Both the position numbers and the translations under genes were made by a program. From an uncultured Solirubrobacteraceae bacterium (lineage in GTDB: Bacteria; Actinomycetota; Thermoleophilia; Solirubrobacterales; Solirubrobacteraceae): a stretch of DNA of 64,000 nt. Where the stretch lies: NCBI GenBank assembly GCA_963716535.1, contig OY970317.1, forward strand, positions 2,480,123 to 2,544,122, written 5' to 3'. The notes beneath the pieces are model-generated. The model did not search any database and was not told the DNA's origin. It saw nothing but the letters and a program-made list of their open reading frames with translations. This document shows, in pieces, positions 11,032 through 53,316 of the stretch. Position 1 is the first letter of the stretch, and each line of letters opens with the position of its first letter.

Positions 11032-12678
11032 TCACGCGAGCGCCATCCCGGGAGCGACGTCGACCTGCACGAGCTGCGGGCCGTCCTTGGCGAGCGCATC
11101 GACGAGGCTCGCGTGCAGCTCGTCGCGCCCGCTGACGGTGCTCGACGGCACGCCATAGCTGGCGGCGGTGGCGGCGACGTCGAGCTTCGGCAGGTCGAGG
11201 CCCGGCGCGCCCTCGACGCTCTCGAGCATCGCGAACCACTTCAGGATCGAGTAGTCGTTGTTGCGCAGCACCAGGAACTTGACGGGGATGTCGTAGGCGG
11301 CGGCGGTCCAGAAGGCGGTGATCGCGTACTGCGCGGAGCCCTCGCCGAGCACGCACACGACCTGGCGCTCGGGCTGCGCGAGCTGCACGCCAAGTGAGGC
11401 CGAAAGCCCGAAGCCGAGCCCGCCGCCGGCGCTGAAGTAGTAGGAGCCGGGGCGCGACAGGCGCAGGTTGTTGCGCAGCGCGGCGGTGCTCGACGGCGAC
11501 TCGAGCACGACGATGCCGTCGTCGGGAAACAGCTCCGCCAGCACCGTGTGCACCTCGCCGCCGCTGAGCTGGTCACCGGGCGGCGGCGTCTCCAGCTCGA
11601 AGCGCGCGGGCGGCTGCTCGCGGTCGGCGGGCTCACGCTCGGCGGGGTCGCTGTCGGGCCGTCCACCGCCGGCGCGCGCAGCCAGCTCGGCGACAAGCGC
11701 GCGCAGCGTCAGCGCGACGTCGGCGACGATCGCGTCGCCGATCGGCGCGCGCGCGGCCTCGTCGGGGTCGCTCGTGATCGCGACCAGCTCGGTGCCCTCT
11801 GGGAGGAAGTCGCCGGGGATGTTGGGGTAGTAGGGGAACACCGAGGAGCCAGCGACGAGCACCAGGTCATAGCCGGCTAGCGCCTGCGCCAGCGGCCCCA
11901 CGGCCGGCGGCAGCACGCCCTGGAAGGCCGGGTGATCCTCGGGGAAGCCGATGCGCCCGCCGCCGGTGGCGGGCGAGGCCCACACGGGCAGCCGCTGTGA
12001 CTCGGCCAGCTCGACCGCGGCGTCCCAGCCGCCGCTCGCGTCGATCTCGGGGCCGGCGACGAACACCGGGCGCGCGGCCGTGCGCAGGCGCTTGGCGAGC
12101 GCGGCCACCTGCGCGGGGTCGGCCTGCGCGCGGCCGCTGACGTCGCGGGCGATCTGCGCGGCGTAGTCGACGGGCGCGAGCTCCGCCGCCCAGTCGTCCA
12201 TCGGGATCGACACGAACGCGGGCCCGCGCGGCGACAGCGAGGCGTGGTGGATCGCCTGCGCGAGCGCGAACGGCACGTCGGCGGCGCGCGGCGGCTCGAC
12301 GCTGAACTTCACATAGGGCTTGGGCACCTCGACCGCGTCGCGGTTTGTCAAATTTGCCTGCAGCGTCATCAGCGAGCGCACCTGCTGGCCGGCGGTGACG
12401 AGCAGCGGCGCCTTGTTGGCGCGCGCGTTGAAGATCGCGCCGACGCCGTTGCCGACGCCGGGGGCGGTGTGCAGGTTGACGTGCGCGACGTTGCCGCTCG
12501 CCTGCGCGAAGCCGTCGGCCATGCCCACCGCGACCGCCTCCTGCAGGCCGAGCACGTAGCGAAAGTCCGACGGGTACTGCCCAAGCATCGGCAGCTCCGT
12601 CGAACCGGGGTTGCCGAAGATCGTCGTCATCCCGCGTGCGCGGAACAGTTCAAACGCGGCGTCGCGGACGGTGGTCAT
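11032..12678 (-). CDS. mdlC: Benzoylformate decarboxylase (ThDP-dependent)
   Basis: TTIFGNPGSTELP, LGLQEAVAVGMADG, GEGSAQY...N ThDP-binding motif. Confidence 0.88.
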   Translation of the reverse strand: MTTVRDAAFELFRARGMTTIFGNPGSTELPMLGQYPSDFRYVLGLQEAVAVGMADGFAQASGNVAHVNLHTAPGVGNGVGAIFNARANKAPLLVTAGQQVRSLMTLQANLTNRDAVEVPKPYVKFSVEPPRAADVPFALAQAIHHASLSPRGPAFVSIPMDDWAAELAPVDYAAQIARDVSGRAQADPAQVAALAKRLRTAARPVFVAGPEIDASGGWDAAVELAESQRLPVWASPATGGGRIGFPEDHPAFQGVLPPAVGPLAQALAGYDLVLVAGSSVFPYYPNIPGDFLPEGTELVAITSDPDEAARAPIGDAIVADVALTLRALVAELAARAGGGRPDSDPAEREPADREQPPARFELETPPPGDQLSGGEVHTVLAELFPDDGIVVLESPSSTAALRNNLRLSRPGSYYFSAGGGLGFGLSASLGVQLAQPERQVVCVLGEGSAQYAITAFWTAAAYDIPVKFLVLRNNDYSILKWFAMLESVEGAPGLDLPKLDVAATAASYGVPSSTVSGRDELHASLVDALAKDGPQLVQVDVAPGMALA

Positions 12679-24761: not shown

Positions 24762-26906
24762 GTGTGGTATCGGTTGCGCTGGCCGCGCGAGGTTGAGGCT
24801 GAGCAGGTCACGCAGGTATGCCGGCTGCTGGCGACGGCGGCGGGTGAGCCGGTAATCCTTGAGGTTGGTGGTCGGCCGGGCCAAGTGGAGCATCGGCTGG
24901 CATTGCCCATAGTACGAGCGGGTAGCACTGTCGATCAGCTCCGCGCGGCAATCCCCGGCCTAGCGATCGAGACCCTGAAAGAGCGAACGGTGGTGGCGAC
25001 TCATGCCGTCGAGTTGCGCCTAACCACGCGGCGGCGATCACTGCGGATTGAGGACGTAGTGAGTAGCAGCCGGGCGCTGTTGACGGCGCTCGCGCACCTG
25101 GGCCGGGGCGAGTACCTAACGCTGCAATGGGTACTCGGTCGGACGTTGCCGGCGATGGTCGTGCCGAACCGACTGGTAGGCATCGACCGAGAGACCTGGC
25201 TCGGTGCTCTGCTGGCGGCACCGTTCAGTCCGCCGCAGCCGGTGGACGCGGAAGTCCGAAACGCGCTGCGCGCCAAGCAAGGCGAGCCGGGCTGGCGAGC
25301 GGTCGGCCGTATCGGCGTGATGGCGAAGACAGTCGGTCGTGAACGCCAGCTCGTGCGCCAAGTCGTCGGGGCGCTCGGTAGTACCGGCGCGCCGGGTGTC
25401 AGCTTTTGGGTGCGCCCGACAAGAGCGAGCCGCGTGGCGTCAGCGACGGTCGGCTGGCGGTTTCCCTTGCGTCTGAACGTGCACGAGTTCGCCAGTGTGG
25501 CTGCCCTGCCCGTTGGTCCGACTCGTGATCTGCCGGTGTCGAAGATCGGTAGCCGTCTGTTGCCGCCGCCCCGGTCGATCGGGCGCACCGGGCGGGTGCT
25601 GGCTCAGGCGACGTATCCGAACCGAGAGCGACCGCTGGCGCTGGCCGCTACCGATTCACTACGGCACTTGCACGCCTTGGGGCCAACCGGCGTCGGTAAG
25701 TCCACGCTGCTGTTGAACCTCATCGCCCAGGACATGAGGGCTGGTCGTGCGGTTGTCGTGATTGAGCCGAGGGGAGACCTCATTGCTGATGTGTTGGCGC
25801 GCGTTCCAGCGGAGCGCGTGGCCGACGTGGTGCTGCTCGATCCGACTGACCTCGGACAGCCGGTGGGCCTGAATCCGCTGGCGGCGCAGGGGCGCTCCCC
25901 GGAGCTGGTGGCCGATCAGTTGCTCGGCATGTTCCACGTGCTCTATGCCGCATATTGGGGACCGCGCACGCATGACATTCTCGGGTCGTCGCTGCTGACA
26001 CTGGCGCGGATACCGGGCATGACCTTGGCGGCGCTTGTGCCGCTGCTCACCGATGCCGCATTTCGGCGGCAGGTGGTCGGGCAAGTTGTCGATCCCATCG
26101 GGCTCGGGCCGTTCTGGAGTGCTTTCGAGGCGTGGAGCGATCAGGAACGGGTCACGGCCATCGCGCCGGTTATGAACAAGCTACGGCCGTTGCTGCTCAG
26201 GCCGGAAATGCGGGCCATCATCGGGCAAGCTCGCCCGCGCTTCGGGCTCCAGCAGGTTTTCACAGAGCGCAAGATTCTGCTCGTCAATCTCAGCCGAGGA
26301 CAGCTCGGGCCAGAGACGGCGGCGCTACTCGGCAGTCTCATCGTCTCGCAGCTCTGGCAGGCGGTACTCGGTCGGTCAGCCGTGCCCCGCGAGCGTCGGC
26401 ATCCGGTGTTTGTGGTGCTCGATGAGTTTCAGGACTACCTACATCTGCCGGTAGACCTTGCGGACGCACTGGCGCAGGCGCGTGGTCTTGGCGTTGGCTT
26501 CGCGCTGGCACACCAATACCTGCACCAGCTCGACGCGGGGATGCGCTCAGCGGTGCTCGCTAACGCACAGTCGCGGATCGCCTTCCGGCTGCCAGCCGAG
26601 GATGCTCGCGTGCTCGCCAGCGGCAGCACCCTGGCACCCGAGGACTTCCAGAGTCTCGGTGCCTTTGAGTGCTACGCCCAGCTTGTCGCTAAGAAGGCTG
26701 TGCAGCCGTGGTGCAGCGCGCGTACCTTGCCGGCCGGCGAGTCACTGAGCGATCCGGGCGTTGTTCGGGCAGCGTCCCGTGCGGCCTACGGTGTCGATCG
26801 CGCGAGCGTCGAGGCAGAGCTACGCGAGCTGTTCGTCGGCCGGGCTGAGGGTGACTACAGCGACCTGACACCCCGCCGACTTGGCGACGGAGGCAGCAAT
26901 GACTAG
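24762..26906 (+). CDS. VirD4/TraD-like type IV coupling ATPase
   Basis: Walker A GPTGVGKST, VVIEPRGDL, GLNPL, Walker B LDEFQ, ARGLGVGFALAHQYLHQL. The true start is probably GTG 24745 if one A is missing from the AAAA run at 24748-24751. Confidence 0.88.
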   Translation: MWYRLRWPREVEAEQVTQVCRLLATAAGEPVILEVGGRPGQVEHRLALPIVRAGSTVDQLRAAIPGLAIETLKERTVVATHAVELRLTTRRRSLRIEDVVSSSRALLTALAHLGRGEYLTLQWVLGRTLPAMVVPNRLVGIDRETWLGALLAAPFSPPQPVDAEVRNALRAKQGEPGWRAVGRIGVMAKTVGRERQLVRQVVGALGSTGAPGVSFWVRPTRASRVASATVGWRFPLRLNVHEFASVAALPVGPTRDLPVSKIGSRLLPPPRSIGRTGRVLAQATYPNRERPLALAATDSLRHLHALGPTGVGKSTLLLNLIAQDMRAGRAVVVIEPRGDLIADVLARVPAERVADVVLLDPTDLGQPVGLNPLAAQGRSPELVADQLLGMFHVLYAAYWGPRTHDILGSSLLTLARIPGMTLAALVPLLTDAAFRRQVVGQVVDPIGLGPFWSAFEAWSDQERVTAIAPVMNKLRPLLLRPEMRAIIGQARPRFGLQQVFTERKILLVNLSRGQLGPETAALLGSLIVSQLWQAVLGRSAVPRERRHPVFVVLDEFQDYLHLPVDLADALAQARGLGVGFALAHQYLHQLDAGMRSAVLANAQSRIAFRLPAEDARVLASGSTLAPEDFQSLGAFECYAQLVAKKAVQPWCSARTLPAGESLSDPGVVRAASRAAYGVDRASVEAELRELFVGRAEGDYSDLTPRRLGDGGSND

Positions 26907-26980
26907 CCGTCGCATCGCCCGTCGTATCGCGTTGAGCAGGTGTCACCAAAACACCTGCGTTGATGCAGAAAGCGGTGAAA

Positions 26981-27212
26981 CTTTGGCAACGAAAGATATG
27001 CACTACCGAGTGCAGTTCTTTCCCGTTCGTCGGGTGGCGGCCCGGGCGTGGCTTGTGCCGGGCAAGCTAGAGCCAACGGTCGGCGATCGTCGGCACGGGG
27101 CCAGTGCAGCGGGGGTGCGGCCTTCTCCGTCGCGCGGGGGTGCTCGTCGTGTCGTGTCGGGTTTCCCGGCGGTCCTACCCCTGTCTATTCCTTCCTCTTT
27201 GGCAACGAAAGA
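26981..27212. repeat. Direct repeat CTTTGGCAACGAAAGA x2 (26981-26996 and 27197-27212)
   Basis: Identical 16-mers in the gap between the coupling ATPase and the replication-relaxation gene; each has CTTT...AAAG ends. Confidence 0.8.
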
Positions 27213-27233
27213 AAAGACGCTCAAGGAGCCGGC

Positions 27234-28043
27234 ATGACGGGCAACACTGCGCGGTCATACACGTCGGCGAGGGGGGTGGCACAACTGCGTGAACGCTTGA
27301 GCGAGCGCGACTTGGACGTAATCCGGCAGGTGGCCGAACTGCGGCTGATGAGTGCCCGCCAGATTCAAGCCATGCACTTCCCGCTCGCCCGCCACGAGAA
27401 CGAGCTGGCCGCCACCCGCGCTCGCCAACGAGTGCTGACGAGACTGTGCCGCGACCAACTGCTGGCGGCACTCCAACGGCGGGTCGGTGGAGTCCGGGCC
27501 GGCTCGACGGGCCTGGTGCTCATGCTCGGGCCGCTCGGCCAGCGAGTCCTTGGACTCAGCGGTCGTCGCCGATTGCACGAGCCGGGCCTGCACTTCTTCG
27601 AGCACACGTTGGCCGCGAGCCAGCTCGCCGTAGACGTGAGCGTGGCAGCACAAGCCGGGACGCTGGAGCTACTGAGCCTGCAAGCCGAACCGGCCTGTTG
27701 GCGACGGGCGGCCGACCTGCACGGGCGGCGTTGGCTGCGACCCGATGCCTTCCTAGTGCTCGGCGTCGGTGGCTATGAGCTGCGCTGGTTCTGCGAGGTC
27801 GATCAGGCAACGGAGAGCATCGTGACCGTGCTCGGCAAGTGCCGGCTCTATGTGGCCTATCGGCAAACAGGTCGTGAGCAGGCCGAGGGCGGCGTCTTTC
27901 CCCGCGTCTGCTGGATAACACCAGATGAAACGCGGGCTGAGCGGCTACGCGAGGCTATCGAGCACGACCGCCAGTTGCCGGCCCAGCTATTCGTCGTGAC
28001 GACAAGCGAACGGGCCGTAATCACGCTCTGTTCGATCAAGTGA
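27234..28043 (+). CDS. Replication-relaxation family protein (Replic_Relax-like)
   Basis: N-terminal wHTH (LSERDLDVI..V...RLMSARQI..MHF), HTLA, LRPDA and FCEVDQATE PD-(D/E)xK-like motifs; AAGGAG RBS. Confidence 0.85.
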   Translation: MTGNTARSYTSARGVAQLRERLSERDLDVIRQVAELRLMSARQIQAMHFPLARHENELAATRARQRVLTRLCRDQLLAALQRRVGGVRAGSTGLVLMLGPLGQRVLGLSGRRRLHEPGLHFFEHTLAASQLAVDVSVAAQAGTLELLSLQAEPACWRRAADLHGRRWLRPDAFLVLGVGGYELRWFCEVDQATESIVTVLGKCRLYVAYRQTGREQAEGGVFPRVCWITPDETRAERLREAIEHDRQLPAQLFVVTTSERAVITLCSIK

Positions 28044-28142
28044 CAGACTAACTATGAACACGAAAGGGGGTAGCAATATGAGAGAAATAGTATTGACTAA
28101 ATGTAGTATACTTAACAACATTAGGAGTGAATATAGACCGCG

Positions 28143-29921
28143 ATGGAGCAGGAGGCAATATTGGTGAAACAAGGTGAGGTCGTCGAGCTAGACGGCGCTC
28201 CCGCCGTGGCCTACATCCGTGTGTCGAGCAAGGAGCAGGCCGAGAAGGGCGGCGAAGCGGAGGGCTTCTCGATTCCGGCTCAGCGTGAGGCGTGCAAACG
28301 GAAGGCCGCTAGCCTCCAAGCTGCGCTGATTGAGCAGTTCGTGGAGCGGGGCGAGTCGGCCAAGACTGCCGATCGGCCGGAACTACAGCGGATGCTCCAG
28401 TTCATTGCCGAGCATCCAGTCCGCTACGTGATCGTGCACAAGGTTGATCGCCTGGCGCGCAACCGCGCCGATGACGTGGCGATCAACTTGGCGATCCGAC
28501 AGGCCGGTGCCGAACTGGTGTCGGTGTCCGAGAACATCGACCAGACACCATCGGGCCTACTGCTGCACGGCATTATGGCGTCGATCAGCGAGTTCTACAG
28601 TCGCAACCTGGCGACGGAGGTCATCAAGGGCAGCGTGCAGAAGGCCAAGAACGGCGGCACGCCCGGCAAGGCCCAAATCGGCTACCTCAACGTGCGGCAG
28701 GTCATCAACGGACGGGAGGGACGCACGGTCGAGATTGATCGGGAGCGTGGGCAGCTAGTGACCTGGGCGTTCGACGCGTATGCGACGGGCGACTGGACGA
28801 TCCGTCGTCTGCTGGCTGAGCTGACCGCCAAAGGACTGACGACGGTTCCCGGTCCCAATACGCCAAGTCGGCCGCTGACCGTCTCGCACCTGCACCGGCT
28901 GCTGCGCCACCCGTACTACGTCGGAGTGGTTCGCTACCGGGGCGTGGTCTACGAGGGCAAGCATGAGCCGCTGACAACCCCGGAGACGTGGCAGCGGGTC
29001 CAAGAGTTGCTGACGGCCAAGTACCTCACGGGCGAGCGCCACCGCGAGCACCCGCACTACCTCAAGGGCTCGATCTTCTGCGGCCAGTGTGGCTCGCGCC
29101 TGATCGTCTGCCACGCCAACGGTCGGAACGGACGCTATCCGTACTTCATCTGCATTGGCCGGCAGCGAGACAAACACAGTTGCTCGCAGCGAGCGCTACG
29201 AATTGAGCGAGTCGAAGCCGCTGTTACGCGGTACTACGCGACCATCCAACTCGCAGAGCAGGAGCTAACCGACCTTCGGGCCTTCCTCCATGAAGAACTG
29301 ACCAATCTTCGGCTCGATGCCGAGCGCGAACGCCGCGTGCAGGATCGCCGGCTCATTGGATTGCAGGCCGAGCGCAAGAAGCTCCTAGATGCCCACTACG
29401 CCGACGCCATCCCGCTCGATCTGCTCAAGAGCGAGCAAGAGCGTCTGACACGCGAGATTGAGACGGCCGAGGGCCGCCTAGCAGCCGTCGAGGGCGATTT
29501 CCGAAAGGCCGAGACGAACCTCCGAAAGGCGCTGACGCGGGCCGGCGACTGCGAGACGGCGTATCGGGAGGCATCCGGGCCGCTTCGCCGACAGTTCAAC
29601 CTCGCGTTCTTCCGGCATCTGCACATTGATGATGACTACAACGTCTCGGGCGAGCTGACCGAGCCGTTCGACAGCCTGCTTGGGCCTGAGCTGCGGCGAG
29701 CCGTGGCAGTCCGAGCTAGCGAGGCGCTGAATGATGCCGTAGCACGCGAGCTGCGCCACCGAACGGACGACGGCACCAGCCTCGAAAACGAGGAACACCC
29801 ACGGGAGCCAGCGGAGCCGCTTTCCGTGGGTGCCTCAACCACCGCCTTTTCTTATGGGGGTGGTTCTAGTACGGAAGATATGGTGCCCCGTGCGGGACTC
29901 GAACCCGCCCCACCGGATTAA
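28143..29921 (+). CDS. Large serine recombinase (integrase)
   Basis: AYIRVSS catalytic motif, SIPAQ, DRLAR, recombinase domain, Zn ribbon CGQCG...YFIC...C, coiled coil. The last 11 codons are antisense tRNA-Lys sequence. Confidence 0.95.
   Translation: MEQEAILVKQGEVVELDGAPAVAYIRVSSKEQAEKGGEAEGFSIPAQREACKRKAASLQAALIEQFVERGESAKTADRPELQRMLQFIAEHPVRYVIVHKVDRLARNRADDVAINLAIRQAGAELVSVSENIDQTPSGLLLHGIMASISEFYSRNLATEVIKGSVQKAKNGGTPGKAQIGYLNVRQVINGREGRTVEIDRERGQLVTWAFDAYATGDWTIRRLLAELTAKGLTTVPGPNTPSRPLTVSHLHRLLRHPYYVGVVRYRGVVYEGKHEPLTTPETWQRVQELLTAKYLTGERHREHPHYLKGSIFCGQCGSRLIVCHANGRNGRYPYFICIGRQRDKHSCSQRALRIERVEAAVTRYYATIQLAEQELTDLRAFLHEELTNLRLDAERERRVQDRRLIGLQAERKKLLDAHYADAIPLDLLKSEQERLTREIETAEGRLAAVEGDFRKAETNLRKALTRAGDCETAYREASGPLRRQFNLAFFRHLHIDDDYNVSGELTEPFDSLLGPELRRAVAVRASEALNDAVARELRHRTDDGTSLENEEHPREPAEPLSVGASTTAFSYGGGSSTEDMVPRAGLEPAPPD
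29837..29865 (-). terminator. Hairpin 15 nt downstream of tRNA-Lys, inside the integrase CDS
   Basis: On the minus strand AACCACCCCC / GGCGGTGGTT, a 10-bp stem with one mismatch and a 9-nt loop; no U-tract. Confidence 0.45.
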
Positions 29922-45812: not shown

Positions 45813-46239
45813 GCTCCTCTGATGCAGAGGGGGCCAGCTTGCCGCGAGGGGCCTGCCGCTGAGGAGGGGGCCGCCGTCGCAGGACCCGCACGGTTGTGGG
45901 ACGCCACCGTTCATGGGCGTCTCCTGACTGCGGTGTCGAGCACCGCGATAGAAAGGGAATGGCTCCCCGGCCTTCGTCGACCTGCCTACTACCCGACGCT
46001 TTTCTGGCTTCGCCTTAGTCGCTTGCCAGTAGCTCGAACATTCGTCTAGTGGGGTTGACGCCCGAAGGCCTGCGGTTTAGCGCTCGAAGCCCCGCAGCGC
46101 GACGTCCGAACGTCCGCACAAGTCCGACCTGTATGAAGCTCTGGGACGACGCGCTGAGCTGGTAGTGGACTATGCTCCCCGCTACTCAAGATATTCGATC
46201 GATTGTTCGATACGAAATCTTCATGATGTTGGCAAGCTG

Positions 46240-48939
46240 ATGAGCGCACGGCGGTCCGAGCCGCCTATCGCCGCGCGAGACGCGGACAGTACGTCGGCGT
46301 ACAGCACCTCGGACAGCTCGCCGGTATCGGCGGATGAAGCAGGCGGGGGACTGTCGGGTCGCGCGCGCACGACCATGGCTGGGGCGCTGATCCTCGTCCT
46401 TGGCCTTGCCGTCTCGACGTACGTGGCCGCTGACCGGCGCTCCAATGTGCGGGAAGCGAACAGGAGATCATTCGACTCGACGGCCGCCGATCTCAGCAGC
46501 GCGCTGGCGGCGAAGCTGAGCACGAACCTCGCGCTGACACGCACGATGCGTGCGCGCGCGGCGATGGAAACTCAGGAGAGCGAGACGCAGTTCCTGCAGT
46601 GGTACGGGGAACTGCAGCGCGGCGCGAGCGCTTCCCCAGGCGTCGTCGCGACGTTCATCCAGGTTGTCCCCGCCTCGAAGCTGTCGGCATTTCAACGACA
46701 GGTCGGGCTCGACCCCGCCTTTCGCAGGCTGCTCGGCGCCAAGCTGCAGGTCTTCCCAGGCGGTGGGCGTCGGACGTACTGCCTGACCAGGGCGATCGTC
46801 GGCAGCGATCTGCCGGCCAGTGCGTATCCAGGGCTGCTGGACTACTGCGCGCCGGTGGTTCCCGGCATCGGCCGCTCGCCATACCCGGCCCTGGTCAGCA
46901 CCGCGACGAACACGGGCACGTTCATCGTGTTGCCGCTGCCAGCCACCGGCAAGCGCTCGCTGGTCGCGATCGGCGCGGCCGTGTACAGGCGTGGCATCTC
47001 GACCGCCACGCTGTCCGCGCGTCGCGCGGCGTTGACGGGAATGATCGGGACGACGTTTGACAGCGTAAGCACGATTCGCTCCGTGCTCAGCGACCATCGA
47101 TCGGTGACGCTGGCGCTCTACCACAGGAACGTCGGCGGCCCGCTGCAGCTGATCGGCCGGGCGGGCGCCAATCCGGCGGGGCGCTCGCCGGGCTACCTCT
47201 CCGCTCGAAACCTGGGTGAAGGCTGGCTGCTCGAGACGAGCGGGACGGCGGAGCCGTTCGCCTCACCCGACGCCAAGGGGGTGATCGCGTTGGGCCTCGG
47301 CCTGCTTGTCACGATTCTCCTGTTCCTGCTTCATCGCGTGATGTCGGGCTCGCGCCAGCGCGCTTGGAGCCTGGTCGGGCTGAGGACCGGCGAGCTCGAG
47401 CACCGCGCGCTACACGATTCGCTGACGGAGCTCCCGAACCGCGTCCTGGTGCTCGATCGCGCCGAACAGATCCTGCAGCGAGCGCGACGTCTGGACGTCC
47501 CGGTGACGGCGCTGTTCGTCGACATCGACGGCTTGAAGCAGATCAACGACCGTCACGGCCACGACGCCGGTGACGAGGTCCTGCGTCAGGTCGCGGCACG
47601 ACTCAGGGCCAGCATGCGCGAGAACGACACGGTCGGTCATCTCGGCGGTGACGAGTTCGTGATCCTGATTGACGCCACGGGGCTCTACACGGCGCCGGAG
47701 CTGGTGGCCGAGCGCGTCCTGGACGTGCTGCGCCAGCCGATCGGCCTCTCTGAGCGAGAGCCCGCGTCGGTCTCCATAACAGCGAGCATCGGCATCGCCA
47801 CCGGCCGTCCCATGTCGGCCGAATACCTGATGCAGGACGCCGACCTCGCGCTGCACAAGGCCAAAGCGATCGGCAAGAACGGCTACGTCAAGTTCGAGTC
47901 CGCGATGCAGGTCGCCGCGCAGGATCGCATCCACCTGGAGATGGATCTCGCGGGGGCGCTGGACTCGAGCCAGTTCTTCCTCGTCTATCAGCCGATGCTG
48001 GATCTCGAGAGCGAGCGGGTCGTCGGCGTCGAGGCGCTGTTGCGCTGGCGGCATCCCGTCAGCGGCGTGATCCCGCCTGACGTGTTCATCCCGATCGCCG
48101 AGGACAACGGGCTGATCGTGCAGATCGGCCGCTGGGTGCTCGACCGTGCCTGCACTCAGGGCGCCGCCTGGCATCGCAACGGGTATCCGCTGAACATCTC
48201 CGTCAACGCCTCTGCTCGCCAGCTCGAGCGCCCGGAGTTCGTCGACGAGGTCCGCGCGGCGCTGCAGCGCAGCGCCCTGGCGCCGACGAGCCTGACGATC
48301 GAGATCACCGAGACGGTGCTGATGCGCAAGCCCGATGCGACCGCGCGGCTGCTCAGTGAGCTCAAGGCTCTCGGCGTGCGGATCGCGGTCGATGACTTCG
48401 GCACCGGGTACAGCTCGCTGGCGTACCTGCGCCAGTTCCCGGTCGACTCGCTGAAGATAGACCGCACGTTCATCACCGGCCTGTCGCTCTCCAGAGAGGC
48501 GCATGCGCTCACGCACACGCTGATCCAGCTCGGCAAGGCCCTCGGTCTGCAAACGCTCGCCGAGGGCGTCGAGCACCACAATCAAGTTCGCGAGCTGCAG
48601 CGCGAGGGCTGTGACCTGGCGCAGGGGTTCCTGTTCGCCCGCCCGCATTCGCGGCCAGAAGATGGTGTACCAGTACTCCGGTACACTGTGGATGTGCCAC
48701 CGACCACGCTGCGGGTCCAGGTCACGCTCGACCCCGAGCTTGCTGCTGCTGTAGCTGAGTTCGGCGGCATGGAGCCACGCTCGCGCGCCGTGCGTGACCT
48801 TGCGCTGCGTGGTGCAGAGGCGATCCGTGCGGAGCGCGCAGACAGAGGCAAGGCTCGCGATCATCTGCTGCGGATCGCAGTAGGTGATGATGACGGTTAC
48901 GATTTCGCCGTCTCAGAGCAGCTGCATGCCGATCGCTGA
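46240..48939 (+). CDS. Membrane sensor (CHASE-like) GGDEF-EAL protein reading through into an antitoxin-like tail
   Basis: Two TMs; HDSLTELPNR, RxxD I-site (REND), GGDEF; EAL, DDFGTGYSS, EGVE, QGFLFARP. Start approximate. Confidence 0.9.
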   Translation: MSARRSEPPIAARDADSTSAYSTSDSSPVSADEAGGGLSGRARTTMAGALILVLGLAVSTYVAADRRSNVREANRRSFDSTAADLSSALAAKLSTNLALTRTMRARAAMETQESETQFLQWYGELQRGASASPGVVATFIQVVPASKLSAFQRQVGLDPAFRRLLGAKLQVFPGGGRRTYCLTRAIVGSDLPASAYPGLLDYCAPVVPGIGRSPYPALVSTATNTGTFIVLPLPATGKRSLVAIGAAVYRRGISTATLSARRAALTGMIGTTFDSVSTIRSVLSDHRSVTLALYHRNVGGPLQLIGRAGANPAGRSPGYLSARNLGEGWLLETSGTAEPFASPDAKGVIALGLGLLVTILLFLLHRVMSGSRQRAWSLVGLRTGELEHRALHDSLTELPNRVLVLDRAEQILQRARRLDVPVTALFVDIDGLKQINDRHGHDAGDEVLRQVAARLRASMRENDTVGHLGGDEFVILIDATGLYTAPELVAERVLDVLRQPIGLSEREPASVSITASIGIATGRPMSAEYLMQDADLALHKAKAIGKNGYVKFESAMQVAAQDRIHLEMDLAGALDSSQFFLVYQPMLDLESERVVGVEALLRWRHPVSGVIPPDVFIPIAEDNGLIVQIGRWVLDRACTQGAAWHRNGYPLNISVNASARQLERPEFVDEVRAALQRSALAPTSLTIEITETVLMRKPDATARLLSELKALGVRIAVDDFGTGYSSLAYLRQFPVDSLKIDRTFITGLSLSREAHALTHTLIQLGKALGLQTLAEGVEHHNQVRELQREGCDLAQGFLFARPHSRPEDGVPVLRYTVDVPPTTLRVQVTLDPELAAAVAEFGGMEPRSRAVRDLALRGAEAIRAERADRGKARDHLLRIAVGDDDGYDFAVSEQLHADR
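48665..48687 (+). promoter_or_regulatory. Operator palindrome GTGTACC-N8-GGTACAC overlapping a TACACT -10 box
   Basis: 7-bp perfect arms; TACACT at 48682-48687 sits 6 nt before GTG 48694, the geometry of a leaderless promoter. Confidence 0.65.
48694..48939 (+). CDS. VapB-like (ribbon-helix-helix) antitoxin, in frame with the upstream EAL gene
   Basis: LRVQVTLDPELAAAV...SRAVRDLALRG RHH-like pattern; overlaps the vapC start. Confidence 0.65.
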   Translation: MPPTTLRVQVTLDPELAAAVAEFGGMEPRSRAVRDLALRGAEAIRAERADRGKARDHLLRIAVGDDDGYDFAVSEQLHADR

Positions 48940-49357
48940 GCCCTACGGCTCCGCCGGATTGCTTGTATTCGATACCTCGGCGTGGAACCGCCAGCGCGAC
49001 CCGGTCGTGCTCCCACGCTGGTTGGCGACTGCAGAAGCCGATTGCCTGGCTGTCTGTCCTGTGGTCGCGCTCGAGCTACTCGCGAGTGCTCGCGACGAGC
49101 GAAGGTTCGCCGATCTTGACCAAACCCTGGCCGCTCTGCCTGCGGCTCACGTCACACGCAGCGCGAGCGCCGCGGCCCTCAGCGCCTCGCGCGAGCTGCG
49201 AGGCGAGCGACGCATCCCCGCGGCTGACTACCTGATCGCCGCGGCCGCCGCCGGCCGCGGCGCGGGGGTGCTGCACTATGACCATCACTTCGAGCCTCTC
49301 TGTCGAGTGCTCGGGATCGAGAGCGTGTGGATCGCTGAGCCTAGGTCGATCGGCTGA
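48926..49357 (+). CDS. vapC: PIN domain toxin
   Basis: LVFDTSAW, VALELL, ADYLIAA, LHYDHHF acidic PIN tetrad. Confidence 0.9.
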   Translation: MPIAEPYGSAGLLVFDTSAWNRQRDPVVLPRWLATAEADCLAVCPVVALELLASARDERRFADLDQTLAALPAAHVTRSASAAALSASRELRGERRIPAADYLIAAAAAGRGAGVLHYDHHFEPLCRVLGIESVWIAEPRSIG

Positions 49358-49764
49358 TCCGCAGCGATCGGGCGTCAACGATCAACAGCGTCGAAAAGTC
49401 GCCGCCGTAGCTCCCGTCCCAACGGCTCGAGCAGCAGTTGCACCAGAGTCTCGACATCGTATTGCGGGCTTGGTCGCGTCCCGCCTCTCGCACCAAATGT
49501 TCGGTGGTCGAAGTCATGCGGAAGGCCCCGGTCCTCGAAGGGTCGAGGCCTTCCGTCCTGACTGGACGGCGTTTGCCGCAAGCGCCAGCGTGCCGCCTGA
49601 CCTTCAGCGCCGGCACTAGCGAACTGACGCACAATGGTCTTGCGATGCTCCGCTATCGACGCGATCCGCTCGCCTGTCCGTCGAGAGCCCATTATTCCGT
49701 ATTATTCTGGTTTCTTGATTTCTTCTTGCGCATACGGCCGCCTACCAGATAGTCTGCGCCCGCC

Positions 49765-50577
49765 ATGCTTTCACTCGCTACCTCCCTTTGGGACCTCCTC
49801 ACGCTCGCCGGCTTTCTGCTCGGTGTCGTCGCCGTATGGCTCGGCAGCAGGCATCTCAAACATCTCAAAACGTTGCCGCGCGAGACGAAGACCGTCGTAC
49901 ACAGCGCACGTCGGTGGCGACGTCGTGCGTTTGAGCAAGGCTTGCACTATCTCGGCGAGTACACCTCCGCTCACGCACACGTGTCATCCGAACCATCGAC
50001 TAGGTCGATTACAGATGAAGACATACGCGCCTGGGGCCGAAGTGTGATGCTTACCTCGGCGTCCGACATCTCTCGATATAGCCAAGGAAAGGCGAACCTT
50101 TTCGTTGTCAACGATGTCACCAATGTTAACGGTAGCCGGGTCGTGACCCTTCGCGCCAAGCAGTTTGTCGGAGGGTTCCCTATCGCGCAGCTCACAACAC
50201 TCCGCACCGAGAATCCAGTGTATAATTATCGTGACATGCCTGTAAGTGAACAATCCACTGCCACGATCGCTGGCCTAGCCGCATTTCGCGACCGAATAGA
50301 ATTTGCCGCTATCGGTAATGCGGTGAGCGACGAAGAGCGCCGGCTTGGTACCACTCACATTCTCGCGATTCCCGTTTGTAAAACCGTGGCGGATGTAGAA
50401 CCTGGAGATGCCGCTGTGGTCACAATTGACTTCCGACTACCTCTACGTGTTCGTGTTCTGTGGGTGTGTGAATCCTGGGCCGCGAAGGGGAAAATCCTCC
50501 GCCGAGCCGAAGTGCTCCAGAAAGCAATGCGAGAGTTCGCTCAAGCACTTGCCAGCAGCGCGAGTCAAAATGCCTGA
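49765..50577 (+). CDS. Single-TM protein with GAF-like C-terminal domain
   Basis: N-terminal TM; TIAGLAAF...ERRLGTTHILAIPVC...AVVTIDF resembles the GAF consensus; AT-richer than the core genes. Confidence 0.6.
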   Translation: MLSLATSLWDLLTLAGFLLGVVAVWLGSRHLKHLKTLPRETKTVVHSARRWRRRAFEQGLHYLGEYTSAHAHVSSEPSTRSITDEDIRAWGRSVMLTSASDISRYSQGKANLFVVNDVTNVNGSRVVTLRAKQFVGGFPIAQLTTLRTENPVYNYRDMPVSEQSTATIAGLAAFRDRIEFAAIGNAVSDEERRLGTTHILAIPVCKTVADVEPGDAAVVTIDFRLPLRVRVLWVCESWAAKGKILRRAEVLQKAMREFAQALASSASQNA

Positions 50578-50595
50578 CCTGGTTGGAGCCCTCTA

Positions 50596-52356
50596 GTGCC
50601 GACGACTCGCTCGTCCAGCTCGGGGGTCGCGCTGCGCGACCTCTTGAGACGACTAGCGGCCCTAGCGCCCGGCGAGGCCACCAAGGTAGTCCGTACCTGC
50701 GCGCGAGATAGCCCACGGGATGTACAGAAATGTTTAAGCGAATATGGCGCAATGCCAGGCTTGTTGCGGCTGACCCAACTCTTCCCGGACGGCTATCTCG
50801 ACGATTCCCCTGACCACGCGAACACAAAAACCTGGAGCCATGGCGAACTCGCAAGGCTACGACTCGTTCAGTGCATGGATCGGATGCTTCCGCAACTTTC
50901 CCGGCCGCAACAGACCTCCATTAGCTCTGCACGCCTTGACGATTTCGTGTTCCGCGACGTCCTCGACCGGAGCGGGTCAAACGGTGATCGCATCGACAAG
51001 TTTCCGCTCCGCGAGCTATCAAAATTGTACGAGGTAGCGCCTCGAATGAACCGACTCCAAGAGCTTGTCGACAGCCTGCGAGACGAAGTCGATCTTAGTG
51101 ACGCGGTGCTGGTAGCGCATCAGCATCTATTGGGCAGCGTGGCCAGTCAGTTCAGCGCTTTGCGACAGCTCGGCCTGGCACCTCGACGCACCTATATAGT
51201 CGGTAAGCCCTACTCGACGAACCGACTCGTAGCTGCACATCTCTCCGCTCAAGGATACTCGGTTAGATCTGGCTTTGAGGCTTTTGATCGAGAGGCCAGA
51301 GACGCGCCAGACTGGTACCAGGCGGATCGCTACGACGCTCTTGGCTATTTCTTCGCACGTGTCGTCCGGTCCCTGCCGCAGGAGAATGTCAGGCGACTTA
51401 TCGTTCTGGACGACGGTGGCCTGATCCTGTCTTGGCTGAACCGTGCGTTCGACAGCGACCTTTTTACTCAAGCGGAAATGAGTGATCTAGGTCGACTAGA
51501 AGTGGTCGGGGTCGAGCAGACTACCTTCGGCCGCCGACTGGTCGGTTCGCTCGACTCGTCGAAACAGACGCAGCCAAGGCATATGACGCGCGTGCCGGTT
51601 GCTAACGTCGCCCAGACGAGACTCAAGCTCGAAAAGGAGTGCGAGCTTATTGCGCAGTCTGTCGTGAATGAGCTTCGCGAATGGATCCGCAGCAGCCACG
51701 CTCGCGGCGAACATGCCGACAACCTGAGCGACGCACGAATTGGCGTGGTTGGCTTCGGCGTCGTTGGCGCATGGATCTGTCGAGCACTCCAGCGCGAGGA
51801 GCTAAAGCACCAGATTCTCGTGTTTGATGAGTCCGTGAGTCACAGTAGCATTGCGAGATCCTTTGGCTATAGGGTCGCGTCATCGGCCTCAGCGCTTGCG
51901 GCAGAATGCTCTGTCATCATCGGGTGCACAGGGGCACGCGACGGAATCGCGATTGACGCAGACGCGCTTCGACCTGGGACCATCCTGGCTTCGGCATCAT
52001 CCGGCAACTACGAGTTTGCGAGAGCCTTTATCACGGCACGGAAGCCGCGGGTCAGCCGAATCAACCCTGAGGTGAACAGAGCCAGGCGAGCAAGTAGCTT
52101 CGACTGGCTCCACTCAATTGTGGCCGTACCTGTAAAGGGAGGCAATGCTTATGTTCTGAATAGCGGCTTCCCGATCAACTTCACCGGCGGGGTCGATCCG
52201 ATTCGCCCAGAGCAGATCGAACTCACCCGCTGTTTGATGGTTCTCGGGGTCGCAGCAGCTCTGAGAGAGTTGCCTCGTCGACCCAACTTTGGCGGCACCG
52301 TGCAGCTCGCGGCTATCGACGAAACGCCCCTCAAGGATCTACTCGGTCATAGCTGA
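50596..52356 (+). CDS. Divergent S-adenosylhomocysteine hydrolase-like NAD-dependent enzyme with N-terminal extension
   Basis: AHQHLL, KPYST, LDDGG, GVEQTTFG, VANVAQTRLK, Rossmann VVGFGVVG, IIGCTG, VLNSGFPINF follow the SAHH motif order. Confidence 0.8.
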   Translation: MPTTRSSSSGVALRDLLRRLAALAPGEATKVVRTCARDSPRDVQKCLSEYGAMPGLLRLTQLFPDGYLDDSPDHANTKTWSHGELARLRLVQCMDRMLPQLSRPQQTSISSARLDDFVFRDVLDRSGSNGDRIDKFPLRELSKLYEVAPRMNRLQELVDSLRDEVDLSDAVLVAHQHLLGSVASQFSALRQLGLAPRRTYIVGKPYSTNRLVAAHLSAQGYSVRSGFEAFDREARDAPDWYQADRYDALGYFFARVVRSLPQENVRRLIVLDDGGLILSWLNRAFDSDLFTQAEMSDLGRLEVVGVEQTTFGRRLVGSLDSSKQTQPRHMTRVPVANVAQTRLKLEKECELIAQSVVNELREWIRSSHARGEHADNLSDARIGVVGFGVVGAWICRALQREELKHQILVFDESVSHSSIARSFGYRVASSASALAAECSVIIGCTGARDGIAIDADALRPGTILASASSGNYEFARAFITARKPRVSRINPEVNRARRASSFDWLHSIVAVPVKGGNAYVLNSGFPINFTGGVDPIRPEQIELTRCLMVLGVAAALRELPRRPNFGGTVQLAAIDETPLKDLLGHS

Positions 52357-52464
52357 CAGGTGCTTGTCGAGCGGAGAGCCGGCAGAGCGCCTTCACCGCG
52401 CGTGGCAGCAGTTGCGTCCTCGCCCTCAGCACGCAAGATCTTGACGAGGTTGCTGATCGACCAT

Positions 52465-53316
52465 ATGCTCCCGCGCGTGCGTACTACGCGAGGGCTTCTC
52501 ACCACTGTGGCCTGCGTGCTCTGCTTGGTGGGATCAGTCCAGCTGGGATCAGCCCAGGCAGCGACCGGCACGCTGACCGGAAGCGTGGGAGGCATTCCCA
52601 GCGGCGCCTCCGCCGAGGTCGTGCAGGCGGTGAATCCACAGGGAGTGATCGGGGCTGTCGGCACGGTCAACGCTGCCGGTACATACACGTTGGCGCTCGC
52701 GCCCGGCGCATGGCTCGTCACGGGCAGCGCACTGTCTGGTGATAGCGCCCTGACCGCTCTCAGCCCCCCGGTGCAAGTGCGAGCGCATCACAGAACGCGC
52801 GGCCCGCAAGCGCACTTGAAAGCGATCGCCGCGGCGGTCAAGCGTGGGCTGCCAGCGGGTTCGGTGGTCGCGGTGGCCCCAATCTTCTTGACCGACGAAC
52901 GCGGCCCTGTCTTCAACCTCAAGCCTGAATACACCGGCCTGGTGACGAACGATCTCTTCGCCCACTGCGCGTCGCGAGGAATCAGGTTCATCGACACGTC
53001 CGAAGCGTTTCGCAAGTTCGCCCAGCAGGAGCTCGCGCTCTCGCGCGCGGGCCGCCTGGCGACGCCGTTCGACTATCGGCCGATCGCTCCCCAGTACCGG
53101 ATCGAAGTCACCAGCAACGAGCTGGACCGCGGAGGGATCATGTTTGGGCTGTCCGTGCACAAGCCGGGCGACACCGAGACCGACTTCTCCGATTTGGAAG
53201 CCAGCGGGGAAGTCAACATCAACGGGCCCCAGCTCGAAACGGGACCCACCGACGAAGAAGTCGTGAACCTGGTCAACCAGGAGGCGGGCGCACTCGCCGA
53301 AAAGATCTGCGGCTAG
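52465..53316 (+). CDS. Hypothetical secreted protein with N-terminal beta-sandwich (carboxypeptidase regulatory-like) domain
   Basis: Signal peptide ending AQA; GTLTGSV...AAGTYTLALAPGAW pattern. Confidence 0.65.
   Translation: MLPRVRTTRGLLTTVACVLCLVGSVQLGSAQAATGTLTGSVGGIPSGASAEVVQAVNPQGVIGAVGTVNAAGTYTLALAPGAWLVTGSALSGDSALTALSPPVQVRAHHRTRGPQAHLKAIAAAVKRGLPAGSVVAVAPIFLTDERGPVFNLKPEYTGLVTNDLFAHCASRGIRFIDTSEAFRKFAQQELALSRAGRLATPFDYRPIAPQYRIEVTSNELDRGGIMFGLSVHKPGDTETDFSDLEASGEVNINGPQLETGPTDEEVVNLVNQEAGALAEKICG

What the first reader, a model, noticed from the sequence alone, without database searches (positions are those of the whole stretch)
49765..52356. AT-richer two-gene module: TM-GAF-like protein + divergent SAH-hydrolase-fold enzyme
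Seen: the 586-aa protein keeps SAHH motif order with equivalents of human AHCY H55 (AHQH), D131 (LDDGG) and K186 (TRLK) and the Rossmann fold. By manual alignment it changes E156 to Q, D190/N191 to E/C, loses the H301 gate (SSGNYE for GHFD), and adds about 165 N-terminal residues. It lies 18 bp after a single-TM GAF-like gene. Both are visibly AT-richer than the host genes and sit next to a vapBC module. Established: GAF domains bind small ligands, often nucleotides; SAHH uses bound NAD to cleave nucleoside thioethers. Inference: this is not housekeeping ahcY but a horizontally acquired nucleoside-processing enzyme paired with a membrane sensor/effector. It could be an undescribed nucleotide-signalling or anti-phage system.
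Basis: partly seen in the sequence, partly recalled or inferred. Interest (0 to 1): 0.75.

Follow-up and report, generated by a model that had tools for sequence, protein, structure and literature searches.

The report
Mobile membrane-GAF plus SAHH-like enzyme cassette
A 2.7-kb piece of foreign DNA carries two always-linked genes: a membrane-anchored small-molecule-sensor-like protein and an uncharacterised NAD-binding relative of S-adenosylhomocysteine hydrolase. In other bacteria the same pair travels on conjugative elements beside known anti-phage systems, so it is a good candidate for an undescribed defence or nucleoside-modifying module.

Summary
Two adjacent + strand genes (49765-50577 and 50596-52356) have GC3 of 57% and 64%, against 76-93% for their neighbours. 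They are absent from 60 related genomes, including 36 species of the same genus. The first protein is a single-pass N-out/C-in membrane protein with a GAF-like fold. The second has the full S-adenosylhomocysteine hydrolase (SAHH) fold plus an N-terminal helical extension.

It is not AhcY. A canonical ahcY lies elsewhere in the genome. The enzyme belongs to a large unannotated SAHH-like superfamily with its own invariant signature. That signature keeps the equivalents of human H55, D131 and K186 and the NAD site, but fixes Q for E156, E for D190 and S for H301.

The membrane-GAF partner sits directly upstream in every locus of the enzyme's clade and is fused to the enzyme once. Three unrelated ICEs carry the pair as cargo next to type II RM+AbiU, PARIS or SIR2-HerA. 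Other clades of the enzyme pair with Nudix, HIT plus NLR-like STAND proteins, a trypsin-like protease, or transporters.

Best reading (confidence 0.4): a mobile conflict module in which a membrane-tethered GAF subunit regulates an NAD-dependent nucleoside-modifying enzyme. Function is not demonstrated, and no published description was found.

The parts
49727..52403 (+). Extent of the transferable two-gene cassette. This is the only stretch of the window that is homologous to the closest relative's locus, L008.
   Evidence: tblastx of L008 against the window: similarity runs from q 9129-11808 to w 49727-52403 and nowhere else, apart from distant ICE-backbone genes at 25.4-26.6 kb. GC and GC3 dip over the same stretch.
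49765..50577 (+). Gene 1: a 270-aa membrane-anchored GAF-like protein (P0001).
   Evidence: ORF. No Pfam, NCBIfam, PADLOC or PHROG hit. AF2 plus Foldseek gives a GAF fold. Conserved motifs are SQGKAN (aa 106-111), TTH (196-198), R156, E191, D222 and R247.
49786..49842 (+). Single N-terminal transmembrane helix (aa 8-26). The predicted topology is N-out/C-in, which puts the GAF domain in the cytoplasm.
   Evidence: Kyte-Doolittle mean 2.04 and no second hydrophobic segment. There are 0 K/R residues before the helix and 5 K/R in the 20 residues after it. All 18 homologues show the same pattern.
50014..50469 (+). GAF-like alpha/beta domain (about aa 84-235), followed by a long C-terminal helix (aa 239-269).
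   Evidence: Secondary structure of the model. Foldseek hits to PDE6C, PDE2A and phytochrome GAF domains.
50584..50587 (+). GGAG Shine-Dalgarno-like motif, 8 nt before the GTG start of gene 2.
   Evidence: Read directly from the sequence.
50596..52356 (+). Gene 2: a 586-aa divergent SAHH-fold NAD-binding enzyme (P0002).
   Evidence: ORF. Foldseek top 50 hits are all SAHH. hhalign against the genome's own AhcY gives 97.2%. Relatives hit PF00670 above its cut-off.
50596..51042 (+). Clade-specific N-terminal helical extension (aa 1 to about 149). Inferred to be a docking or regulatory domain.
   Evidence: All-helical and confidently modelled. It aligns across most full-length clade members, although L005's shorter extension is not detectably similar. 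It is absent from the 370-440-aa members of other clades.
51676..52065 (+). Rossmann NAD-binding domain (about aa 361-490). It contains G386-x-G388-x-x-G391 and D411, the equivalent of human E243.
   Evidence: Pfam Rossmann hits at aa 360-478. hhalign mapping. These positions are invariant over 80 loci.
48884..49357 (+). Neighbouring PIN-domain (VapC-like) gene. It has host-like composition and is not part of the cassette.
   Evidence: Pfam PIN E 2.2e-8. GC3 76%. Not shared with L008.

Best explanation
The two genes form one horizontally mobile functional unit, most likely a conflict (anti-phage) module.

Shown:
- Gene 1 encodes a protein with one N-terminal membrane anchor and a cytoplasmic GAF-like domain.
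- Gene 2 encodes an SAHH-fold enzyme with an intact NAD site. It keeps equivalents of the SAHH residues that oxidise the ribose 3'-OH (K186, here K344), abstract the C4' proton (D131, here D273) and act as acid/base (H55, here H177).
- It also carries fixed family-wide changes: E156 to Q, D190 to E, H301 to S, and the GHP adenine loop changed to GFP.
- The pair is invariably linked and is fused once.

Inferred:
- The enzyme's clade-specific N-terminal helical domain docks it onto the GAF subunit, giving a membrane-tethered complex.
- The GAF domain binds a small, nucleotide-like ligand and gates the enzyme.
- The enzyme uses tightly bound NAD+ to oxidise the 3'-OH of an adenine-type nucleoside or nucleotide. 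It then eliminates, epimerises or otherwise remodels the sugar.
- The result either makes an inhibitory nucleoside analogue or destroys a needed nucleotide, and so blocks replication of an invader.
For: Foreign origin: low GC3, absence from 60 relatives, and homology to the nearest relative confined to the two genes.

Obligate linkage: the partner is present in every clade locus read. Start and stop overlap or lie close together, and L010 carries an 846-aa fusion in the same order. The enzymes linked to TM-GAF form a single clade.

Folds.

Catalytic core: H177, D272-D273, E307-Q308-T309, K344, E348, S469, E473, GxGxxG and D411 are invariant or nearly so over 80 loci from many phyla. This argues for a live enzyme with conserved chemistry.

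Conflict context of the pair:
- L005: ICE cargo with type II RM plus AbiU.
- L008: PARIS AriAB, 532 bits.
- L093: SIR2 (317 bits) plus HerA (751 bits) plus PDC-M36A.
- L009: adjacent TIR gene.
- L003: integrase.
- L090: Mu-like transposase.

Conflict context of the superfamily:
- HIT + enzyme + DUF4062- or CHAT-STAND-WD40.
- Trypsin-like protease partner in the sister clade.
- Nudix partners.

The lack of partner swapping within the clade, together with the fusion, favours a holoenzyme-type complex over a diffusible-signal relay.
Against: There are no functional data of any kind.

Several loci have no defence neighbours: L001/L004 sit between FHA and gltB genes, L010 next to pyrD/pyrF, and the P0017 and P0027 loci lie among metabolic genes.

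The window copy itself sits only beside vapC and c-di-GMP genes.

Neither protein hits any PADLOC model except for weak Rossmann similarity.

The defence association is a count over about 13 contexts, not a statistical test.

The docking role of the N-terminal extension, ligand binding by the GAF domain and the identity of the substrate are all untested.

Other clades sit in operons with transporters, an SDR or a methyltransferase. Those operons look biosynthetic rather than immune.

The single fusion (L010) has lost both the GAF QGK motif and D273, so it may be degenerate.
Confidence: 0.4

Rival explanations
1. Signal relay with a membrane effector, by analogy with Pycsar, CBASS or type III CRISPR Cam1. 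On sensing infection through its N-terminal domain, the SAHH-like enzyme converts a nucleoside or nucleotide into a rare signalling molecule. The TM-GAF protein binds the signal, oligomerises through its single TM helix, and depolarises the membrane (abortive infection).
For: The architecture is an N-terminal TM helix plus a cytoplasmic ligand-binding fold. This resembles known TM-sensor effectors; that comparison is from my own knowledge and was not tested. The pair sits in defence-island and ICE-cargo contexts. There is a weak fold resemblance to a phage class III holin (E 2e-3, but TM-score about 0.3).
Against: No effector swapping is seen across a clade spanning about 30-100% identity, whereas signalling systems usually swap effectors. 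A fusion to the enzyme exists. One TM helix and no amphipathic or second TM segment. SAHH-type enzymes are not known to make signals. No PADLOC effector model hits.
Confidence: 0.2
2. The pair is an accessory metabolic or biosynthetic module, not an immune one. A membrane-tethered, GAF-regulated enzyme would make or salvage a modified nucleoside, for example a nucleoside-antibiotic-like metabolite or a cofactor derivative. It would travel on mobile elements as ordinary cargo.
For: Other clades of the enzyme are operonic with ABC/CbiQ-like transporters, an FkbM methyltransferase, and SDR plus EamA exporter genes on Simkania plasmid pSn. SAHH homologues PenD and PenG occur in the vidarabine cluster (PMC12648386); their relatedness to this family was not tested. 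Several pair loci have metabolic neighbours.
Against: The pair recurs inside the defence-cargo regions of three different ICEs. No further biosynthetic genes are conserved beside the pair. The distribution is very patchy, with 0 of 60 relatives carrying it.
Confidence: 0.25
3. The enzyme is simply a second, divergent S-adenosylhomocysteine hydrolase (AhcY paralogue) that recycles SAH.
For: SAHH fold, with H55, D131 and K186 equivalents and the NAD site retained. JGI labels some homologues 'S-adenosylhomocysteine hydrolase'.
Against: PF05221 does not hit, and only 13-19% identity to solved SAHHs. The substitutions E156Q, D190E, N191S/C, H301S and H353F are family-invariant. A canonical ahcY is present at 508 bits. 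The enzyme has an obligate membrane-GAF partner and a mobile, patchy distribution.
Confidence: 0.03

Closest known systems
S-adenosyl-L-homocysteine hydrolase (AhcY/SAHH, EC 3.13.2.1; e.g. PDB 3x2f, 6gbn, 1li4)
   Same: Two-domain fold (TM-score 0.72-0.77 over about 450 columns). Rossmann NAD site with GxGxxG and an acidic residue at the end of beta-2. Equivalents of H55, D130/D131, E155 and K186. A GxP base-binding loop.
   Different: 13-19% identity and below the PF05221 threshold. E156Q, D190E, N191C/S, H301S and H353F. An extra N-terminal helical domain of about 110-150 aa. An obligate membrane-GAF partner. Mobile and patchy distribution. A separate canonical ahcY exists in the same genome.
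Uncharacterised SAHH-like superfamily (about 1,586 cluster representatives at E<=1e-3), whose members pair with Nudix, HIT+STAND-WD40, trypsin-like protease or transporter genes
   Same: Shares the full invariant signature: QH, Y[ST], DDG, EQT, K...E, C-T-G, SS...E and GFPxNFxG.
   Different: This clade alone has the TM-GAF partner and the N-terminal extension. It also has clade-specific residues at likely substrate positions: F311 and Q/E340 where other clades have Arg, N471 for Asp, and T530 for Asp.
GAF-regulated enzymes (PDE2/5/6, cyanobacterial CyaB cyclases)
   Same: GAF-like fold placed N-terminal to, or encoded upstream of, a catalytic module. One natural fusion has the same domain order.
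   Different: No sequence match to the Pfam GAF families. A single GAF-like domain anchored by a TM helix. Usually encoded as a separate polypeptide. The catalytic partner is an SAHH-fold enzyme, not a cyclase or phosphodiesterase. The ligand is unknown.
TM-sensor effectors of signalling defence systems (type III CRISPR Cam1, Pycsar PycTM, CBASS Cap14/Cap15)
   Same: A small protein with one or more N-terminal TM helices and a cytoplasmic ligand-binding domain, encoded next to an enzyme and located in defence islands.
   Different: No cyclase or CD-NTase. The sensor fold is GAF rather than CARF, SAVED or cNMP-binding. No effector swapping. No PADLOC hit. The comparison is by architecture only.
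PenD/PenG, SAHH homologues of the pentostatin/vidarabine (Ara-A) cluster of Streptomyces antibioticus
   Same: SAHH homologues recruited for nucleoside-analogue chemistry in actinomycetes (PMC12648386).
   Different: The relationship to this family was not tested here because no sequences were at hand. The pen cluster has no TM-GAF partner.

Membership tests
Canonical SAHH/AhcY (PF05221 + PF00670) | Two-domain SAHH fold | tested here: met
   The Foldseek top 50 PDB hits are all SAHH, E down to 8e-16, TM-score 0.72-0.77. hhalign against the genome's own AhcY gives probability 97.2%.
Canonical SAHH/AhcY (PF05221 + PF00670) | Sequence match to the Pfam or NCBIfam AdoHcyase models above their curated cut-offs | tested here: not met
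   No PF05221 or PF00670 hit for P0002. NCBIfam adenosylhomocysteinase scores 14.4 bits against a cut-off of 512.
Canonical SAHH/AhcY (PF05221 + PF00670) | Full catalytic set: H55, D131, E156, K186, D190, N191, H301, H353 (human numbering) | tested here: not met
   H177, D273 and K344 are kept. E156 is Q308, D190 is E348, N191 is C349, H301 is S469 and H353 is F525. The changes are fixed across 80 loci. The H353 equivalence is my own motif alignment of GHPSF with GFPIN; hhalign did not align that region.
Canonical SAHH/AhcY (PF05221 + PF00670) | NAD-binding Rossmann motif with an acidic residue for the adenosine ribose | tested here: met
   G386-x-G388-x-x-G391 and D411 (equivalent to E243) are invariant or nearly so.
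Canonical SAHH/AhcY (PF05221 + PF00670) | Serves as the genome's SAH-recycling enzyme | tested here: not met
   A canonical ahcY lies at G000:C1:1610501-1611934 (508 bits). The divergent gene is absent from 60 relatives. Enzyme activity cannot be tested with these tools.
Uncharacterised SAHH-like superfamily (Nudix-, HIT-, protease- or GAF-associated) | Invariant signature: QH / DDG / EQT / K-x3-E / SS-x3-E / GFPxNFxG | tested here: met
   All signature positions are present in P0002 and in 80 of 80 aligned loci at 90% or more. phmmer finds 728 cluster representatives at E<=1e-10.
GAF domain (PF01590, PF13185, PF13492) | GAF alpha/beta fold | tested here: met
   Foldseek hits PDE6C, PDE2A and phytochrome GAF domains at E 7e-6 to 4e-3 with probability 0.9-1.0. 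TM-scores are modest (0.3-0.4) because of the long flanking helices.
GAF domain (PF01590, PF13185, PF13492) | Sequence match to Pfam GAF models | tested here: not met
   The only Pfam hit is a sub-threshold HemY_N match over the TM region.
GAF domain (PF01590, PF13185, PF13492) | Binds a small-molecule ligand in the GAF pocket | not testable with these tools
   A conserved polar cluster (SQGKAN, TTH, R156, E191, D222) suggests a binding site, but no model coordinates or ligand data were available.
Known anti-phage systems (PADLOC-DB 2.0) | Match to a model of a known or candidate defence protein | tested here: not met
   P0001 has no hit. P0002 has only weak Rossmann similarity to E1-like models (E 4e-4 or weaker).
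Nucleotide-signalling defence systems with TM effectors (Pycsar, CBASS, type III CRISPR-Cam1) | A dedicated nucleotide cyclase or oligonucleotide synthase as signal generator | tested here: not met
   There is no cyclase, CD-NTase or Cas10 in the cassette. The only enzyme is SAHH-like.
Nucleotide-signalling defence systems with TM effectors (Pycsar, CBASS, type III CRISPR-Cam1) | Modular exchange of effectors among related signal generators | tested here: not met
   All 13 clade loci read keep the same TM-GAF partner. Different partners occur only in different deep clades.
Defence-island residents (operational criterion) | Recurrent location next to known defence genes on mobile elements | tested here: inconclusive
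   Four of about 13 contexts have PADLOC-confirmed defence genes within about 6 kb (L005, L008, L093, and weakly L009). Six contexts are on ICEs or next to transposon or integrase genes. No background-corrected statistic was computed.

The most novel reading that the evidence does not exclude
The SAHH-like superfamily would be a new class of immune enzyme. It would use tightly bound NAD+ to oxidise the ribose 3'-OH of a nucleoside or nucleotide and so generate an antiviral nucleoside analogue or an alarm molecule. The TM-GAF/enzyme cassette would be a self-contained, membrane-tethered two-gene anti-phage system with a chemistry not seen in any described defence system.
Probability: 0.25. Interest if true: 0.85.

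Novelty: new variant of a known kind. Interest (0 to 1): 0.66.

Why it matters
If the cassette protects against phage, it would add an enzyme chemistry not yet seen in bacterial immunity: SAHH-type, NAD-dependent remodelling of the ribose. It would also give a first functional handle on a superfamily of more than a thousand unannotated protein clusters spread over many bacterial and archaeal phyla. Those proteins repeatedly sit beside Nudix, HIT, NLR-like STAND, protease and now membrane-GAF partners.

If the product turns out to be a modified nucleoside, the family could also be a source of new nucleoside-analogue biosynthetic enzymes.

The two-gene unit is small (2.7 kb), self-contained and easy to test in laboratory actinomycetes.

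Tried and rejected
- Sequence searches of both proteins against PDB, NCBIfam, PHROGs and PADLOC gave nothing beyond generic Rossmann hits.
- Empty-site comparison failed. The nearest same-genus genomes share only a photolyase at 61-63% identity and no synteny.
- No flanking direct or inverted repeats, att sites or terminators delimit the insert.
- The 105-aa minus-strand ORF at 49375-49692 is R/P/G-rich with no family hit, so I treated it as non-coding.
- P0003 (52360-53316) has no homologue in any related locus and host-like GC3. It is not part of the module.
- tblastn of the enzyme against phage genomes found nothing. Against plasmids it found only Simkania pSn, which belongs to a different clade.
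- A profile search for distant TM-GAF relatives with other partners returned only the known family.
- Literature searches for an SAHH-like defence component found no description. They included the Kaur et al. 2020 conflict-systems paper and the 2025 language-model paper that named six new Streptomyces systems.
- No RNA-seq run holds the locus, only a soil metagenome.
- The BFVD hit to a class III holin was rejected as evidence (TM-score about 0.3, rmsd 17 Å).
Full report
**What is there.**
The window is about 67% GC. Composition drops to 54-60% GC between about 49.5 and 52.5 kb. Two + strand ORFs fill the dip:
- P0001, 49765-50577, 270 aa.
- P0002, 50596-52356, 586 aa, with a GTG start preceded by GGAG at -8. 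The two are 18 bp apart.

GC3 is 57% for P0001 and 64% for P0002, against 76-93% for the six neighbouring genes. Upstream lie a CHASE-GGDEF-EAL gene and a PIN (VapC-like) gene. Downstream lie an orphan secreted-looking protein, a photolyase, a GGDEF-HD-GYP gene and an amidase. All have host-like composition.

**Gene 1.**
P0001 hits no Pfam, NCBIfam, PADLOC, PHROG or PDB sequence model. It has one hydrophobic helix at aa 8-26, no K/R before it, five K/R in the next 20 residues, and no second hydrophobic segment. All 18 homologues show the same pattern. By the positive-inside rule the protein is an N-out/C-in anchor and the rest is cytoplasmic.

An AlphaFold2 model built from a 13-sequence alignment (pLDDT 85.6) has long helices and then an alpha/beta domain. 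Its best PDB matches are the GAF domains of PDE6C, PDE2A and plant phytochromes (E 7e-6 to 4e-3). Family-invariant polar residues cluster in SQGKAN (106-111), R156, E191, TTH (196-198), D222 and R247. 'TM-GAF-like' is therefore confirmed at the fold level only.

**Gene 2.**
By sequence P0002 gives only sub-threshold Rossmann hits. Its AlphaFold2 model (37 sequences, pLDDT 89.9, pTM 0.92) has SAH hydrolases as all 50 top PDB hits (3x2f E 8e-16, TM 0.76, about 450 aligned columns, 13-19% identity). Profile comparison with this genome's own AhcY gives probability 97.2% and E 2.8e-11. More typical members of the family hit PF00670 above its gathering score, at 40-57 bits.

| P0002 | Human SAHH |
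|---|---|
| H177 | H55 |
| D272/D273 | D130/D131 |
| E307 | E155 |
| Q308 | E156 |
| K344 | K186 |
| E348 | D190 |
| C349 | N191 |
| D411 | E243 |
| S469 | H301 |
| E473 | E305 |

By my own motif alignment (not by hhalign), the base-binding loop GHPSF corresponds to G524-F525-P526-I-N528. The core begins at about residue 150, which aligns with AhcY residue 41. The N-terminal extension is therefore about 110-150 aa, all-helical and confidently modelled.

**Not a housekeeping AhcY.**
A canonical ahcY is present 0.9 Mb away (PF05221, 508 bits). P0002 has no homologue at E<=1e-10 in 60 related genomes, 36 of them species of the same genus.

**A large, unannotated superfamily.**
An exhaustive phmmer search finds 1,586 cluster representatives at E<=1e-3 and 728 at E<=1e-10. 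These are stand-alone proteins of 370-450 aa, forms with N-terminal extensions, and fusions of 700-1,900 aa.

Seventy-seven loci from named genomes span Actinomycetota, Acidobacteriota, Chlamydiota, Verrucomicrobiota, Patescibacteria, Bacteroidota, Cyanobacteriota, Planctomycetota, Pseudomonadota and archaea.

Over 80 aligned loci the following positions are invariant or at least 90% conserved: Q176-H177, Y206-S/T207, D272-D273-G274, E307-Q308-T309, A339, K344, E348, GxGxxG, D411, C444-T-G446, S468-S469, E473 and G524-F525-P526-x-N-F529-x-G531. They are not decay.

From established SAHH enzymology (my own knowledge), K186 assists hydride transfer from C3' to NAD+, D131 abstracts the C4' proton, and H55 and H301 handle the leaving group and water. 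This family keeps the redox and C4' machinery but alters the water/gate residues and the residues that contact the 2'/3'-OH groups. Ribose 3'-oxidation with a different follow-up step or substrate is the natural inference.

**Linkage of the two genes.**
An HMM of the TM-GAF family finds a partner immediately upstream of the enzyme in the window and in L001/L002, L003, L004, L005, L008, L009, L011 (split), L014, L090, L091 and L093. It finds none in the other 67 or so superfamily loci.

Spacing is a 4-11 bp overlap or a 0-21 bp gap in most loci, and 129-200 bp in L090 and L091. In L010 (an Acidimicrobiales MAG) the two are one 846-aa ORF in the same order. That copy has lost the QGK motif and D273.

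Two further loci without retrievable DNA show an upstream gene of 263-286 aa. For the P0027 locus, the partner homologue P0055 was recorded from a contig of the same length as one that carries P0027.

In a FastTree phylogeny of the core domain, the enzymes linked to TM-GAF form one clade (support 0.74, or 0.90 together with a three-member sister group). Other clades coincide with other partners:
- HIT (support 0.92).
- An ABC/CbiQ-like operon (1.0).
- Nudix plus a 170-aa protein (1.0).

The sister group's L013 has a gene for a trypsin-like protease upstream.

Within the GAF clade, likely substrate-facing positions differ from other clades: F311 and Q/E340 where others have Arg, N471 for Asp, and T530 for Asp. 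This suggests a less anionic substrate, but that is inference only.

**Context.**
Homology between the window and its closest relative L008 (81% and 84% aa identity) is confined to window 49727-52403, so the two genes move as a unit.

L005, L008 and L093 are three different ICEs. Their coupling ATPase, replication-relaxation protein and serine recombinase are 33-52% identical to those of the ICE resident at about 25-29 kb of this window. Each carries the pair in its cargo region. PADLOC confirms the neighbouring cargo as:
- L005: type II MTase (384 bits), REase and AbiU (127 bits).
- L008: a fused PARIS AriAB (532 bits).
- L093: PDC-M36A (143 bits) and SIR2 (317 bits) plus HerA (751 bits).

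L009 has a TIR-domain gene directly upstream. L003 has an integrase, a LexA-like gene and a patatin gene. L090 has a Mu-like transposase with IstB. L011 has an IS66 transposase.

Against this, L001/L004, L010 and the P0017 and P0027 loci have ordinary chromosomal neighbours.

At superfamily level, L019 and L038 encode HIT + enzyme + a 1,300-aa STAND NTPase-WD40 protein whose N-terminal domain is swapped (DUF4062 in one, CHAT in the other). That is a hallmark of NLR-like conflict systems. The Simkania plasmid pSn copy sits with SDR and EamA exporter genes.

**Interpretation.**
Invariable pairing, translational coupling, one fusion, and a clade-specific extra domain on the enzyme together point to a physical complex tethered to the inner face of the membrane. 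The complex has a GAF-fold subunit placed where GAF domains sit in GAF-regulated enzymes.

I therefore favour 'GAF subunit senses a ligand and gates an NAD-dependent nucleoside-remodelling enzyme' (confidence 0.4) over two alternatives:
- 'The enzyme makes a signal and TM-GAF is a pore-forming effector' (0.2).
- A purely metabolic or biosynthetic role (0.25).

A plain AhcY paralogue is essentially excluded (0.03).

The steps that are shown are the folds, the signature, the linkage, the mobility and the neighbours. The steps that are inferred are the complex, the ligand, the substrate, the product and the phenotype.

**Known or new.**
No PADLOC model and no paper in the searchable library describes this pair or an SAHH-like defence component. 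Earlier notes of this scan had flagged the same superfamily with Nudix, protease, radical-SAM/NLR and ThyX partners. My data independently reproduce the Nudix, protease and STAND associations and add the TM-GAF clade.

I rate it a new variant of a known kind: an SAHH-fold NAD enzyme with a GAF regulatory partner, carried as mobile accessory cargo. There is a 0.25 chance that it represents a genuinely new immune chemistry.

Noticed in passing
L019:9218-15048 and L038:9081-15310: Three-gene operons: a HIT-family hydrolase, the SAHH-like enzyme, and a 1,300-aa STAND NTPase (NB-ARC/NACHT) with 14 WD40 repeats. The N-terminal effector domain of the STAND protein is swapped, DUF4062 in L019 and CHAT protease in L038. 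This looks like an undescribed NLR-like conflict system built around the same enzyme.
   Followed up: partly
L010:8924-11464: A single 846-aa ORF in an Acidimicrobiales MAG fuses TM-GAF to the SAHH-like enzyme. The fused copy has lost both the GAF QGK motif and the D273 (human D131) equivalent. It sits next to pyrD and pyrF.
   Followed up: partly
L013:8074-11269: In the sister clade (Longimicrobium MAGs) a 604-aa protein with a C-terminal trypsin-like peptidase lies directly upstream of a short-form SAHH-like enzyme, in place of TM-GAF.
   Followed up: partly
L020:9003-12204 (also L024, L028, L033, L044, L082): Chlamydiota and Verrucomicrobiota operon: Nudix hydrolase, a conserved 155-181-aa unknown protein and the SAHH-like enzyme, followed in L020 by an FkbM-type methyltransferase.
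   Followed up: partly
L036:5231-10665 (also L030, L032, L056, L065, L068, L080): Five-gene operon: two membrane proteins of about 260 aa (one weakly CbiQ-like), a double ABC ATPase, a 431-aa unknown protein and the SAHH-like enzyme. It looks like a transporter-coupled version.
   Followed up: partly
L092 (Simkania negevensis plasmid pSn, NC_015710.1 122429-125382): On a conjugative plasmid, an SAHH-like 'hypothetical protein' is followed by an SDR oxidoreductase and an EamA transporter. A MazG-like pyrophosphohydrolase and an ASCH protein lie nearby.
   Followed up: no
window 46165-48939: The CHASE-GGDEF-EAL ORF runs on in frame, past the end of its EAL domain, into a stretch of about 80 aa that looks like a VapB or RHH antitoxin. 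This lies just before the PIN gene at 48884-49357. It is the subject of another first-stage note.
   Followed up: no
window 52465-53316: An orphan protein of about 284 aa with a signal-peptide-like N-terminus (MLPRVRTTRGLLTTVACVLCLVGSVQLGSAQA). It has no Pfam, NCBIfam, PADLOC or PHROG hit, no homologue in any related locus, and host-like GC3 (79%).
   Followed up: partly
window 25400-29300 compared with L005, L008 and L093: The ICE resident in this window belongs to the same family (coupling ATPase, Replic_Relax, serine recombinase; 33-52% aa identity) as three ICEs that carry the TM-GAF/SAHH-like pair as cargo. Here the pair lies about 20 kb outside that ICE.
   Followed up: partly
L093:13219-14643: A DUF8370 protein matching the PADLOC candidate PDC-M36A (143 bits) lies between the pair and a SIR2-HerA system in the ICE cargo region.
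   Followed up: no
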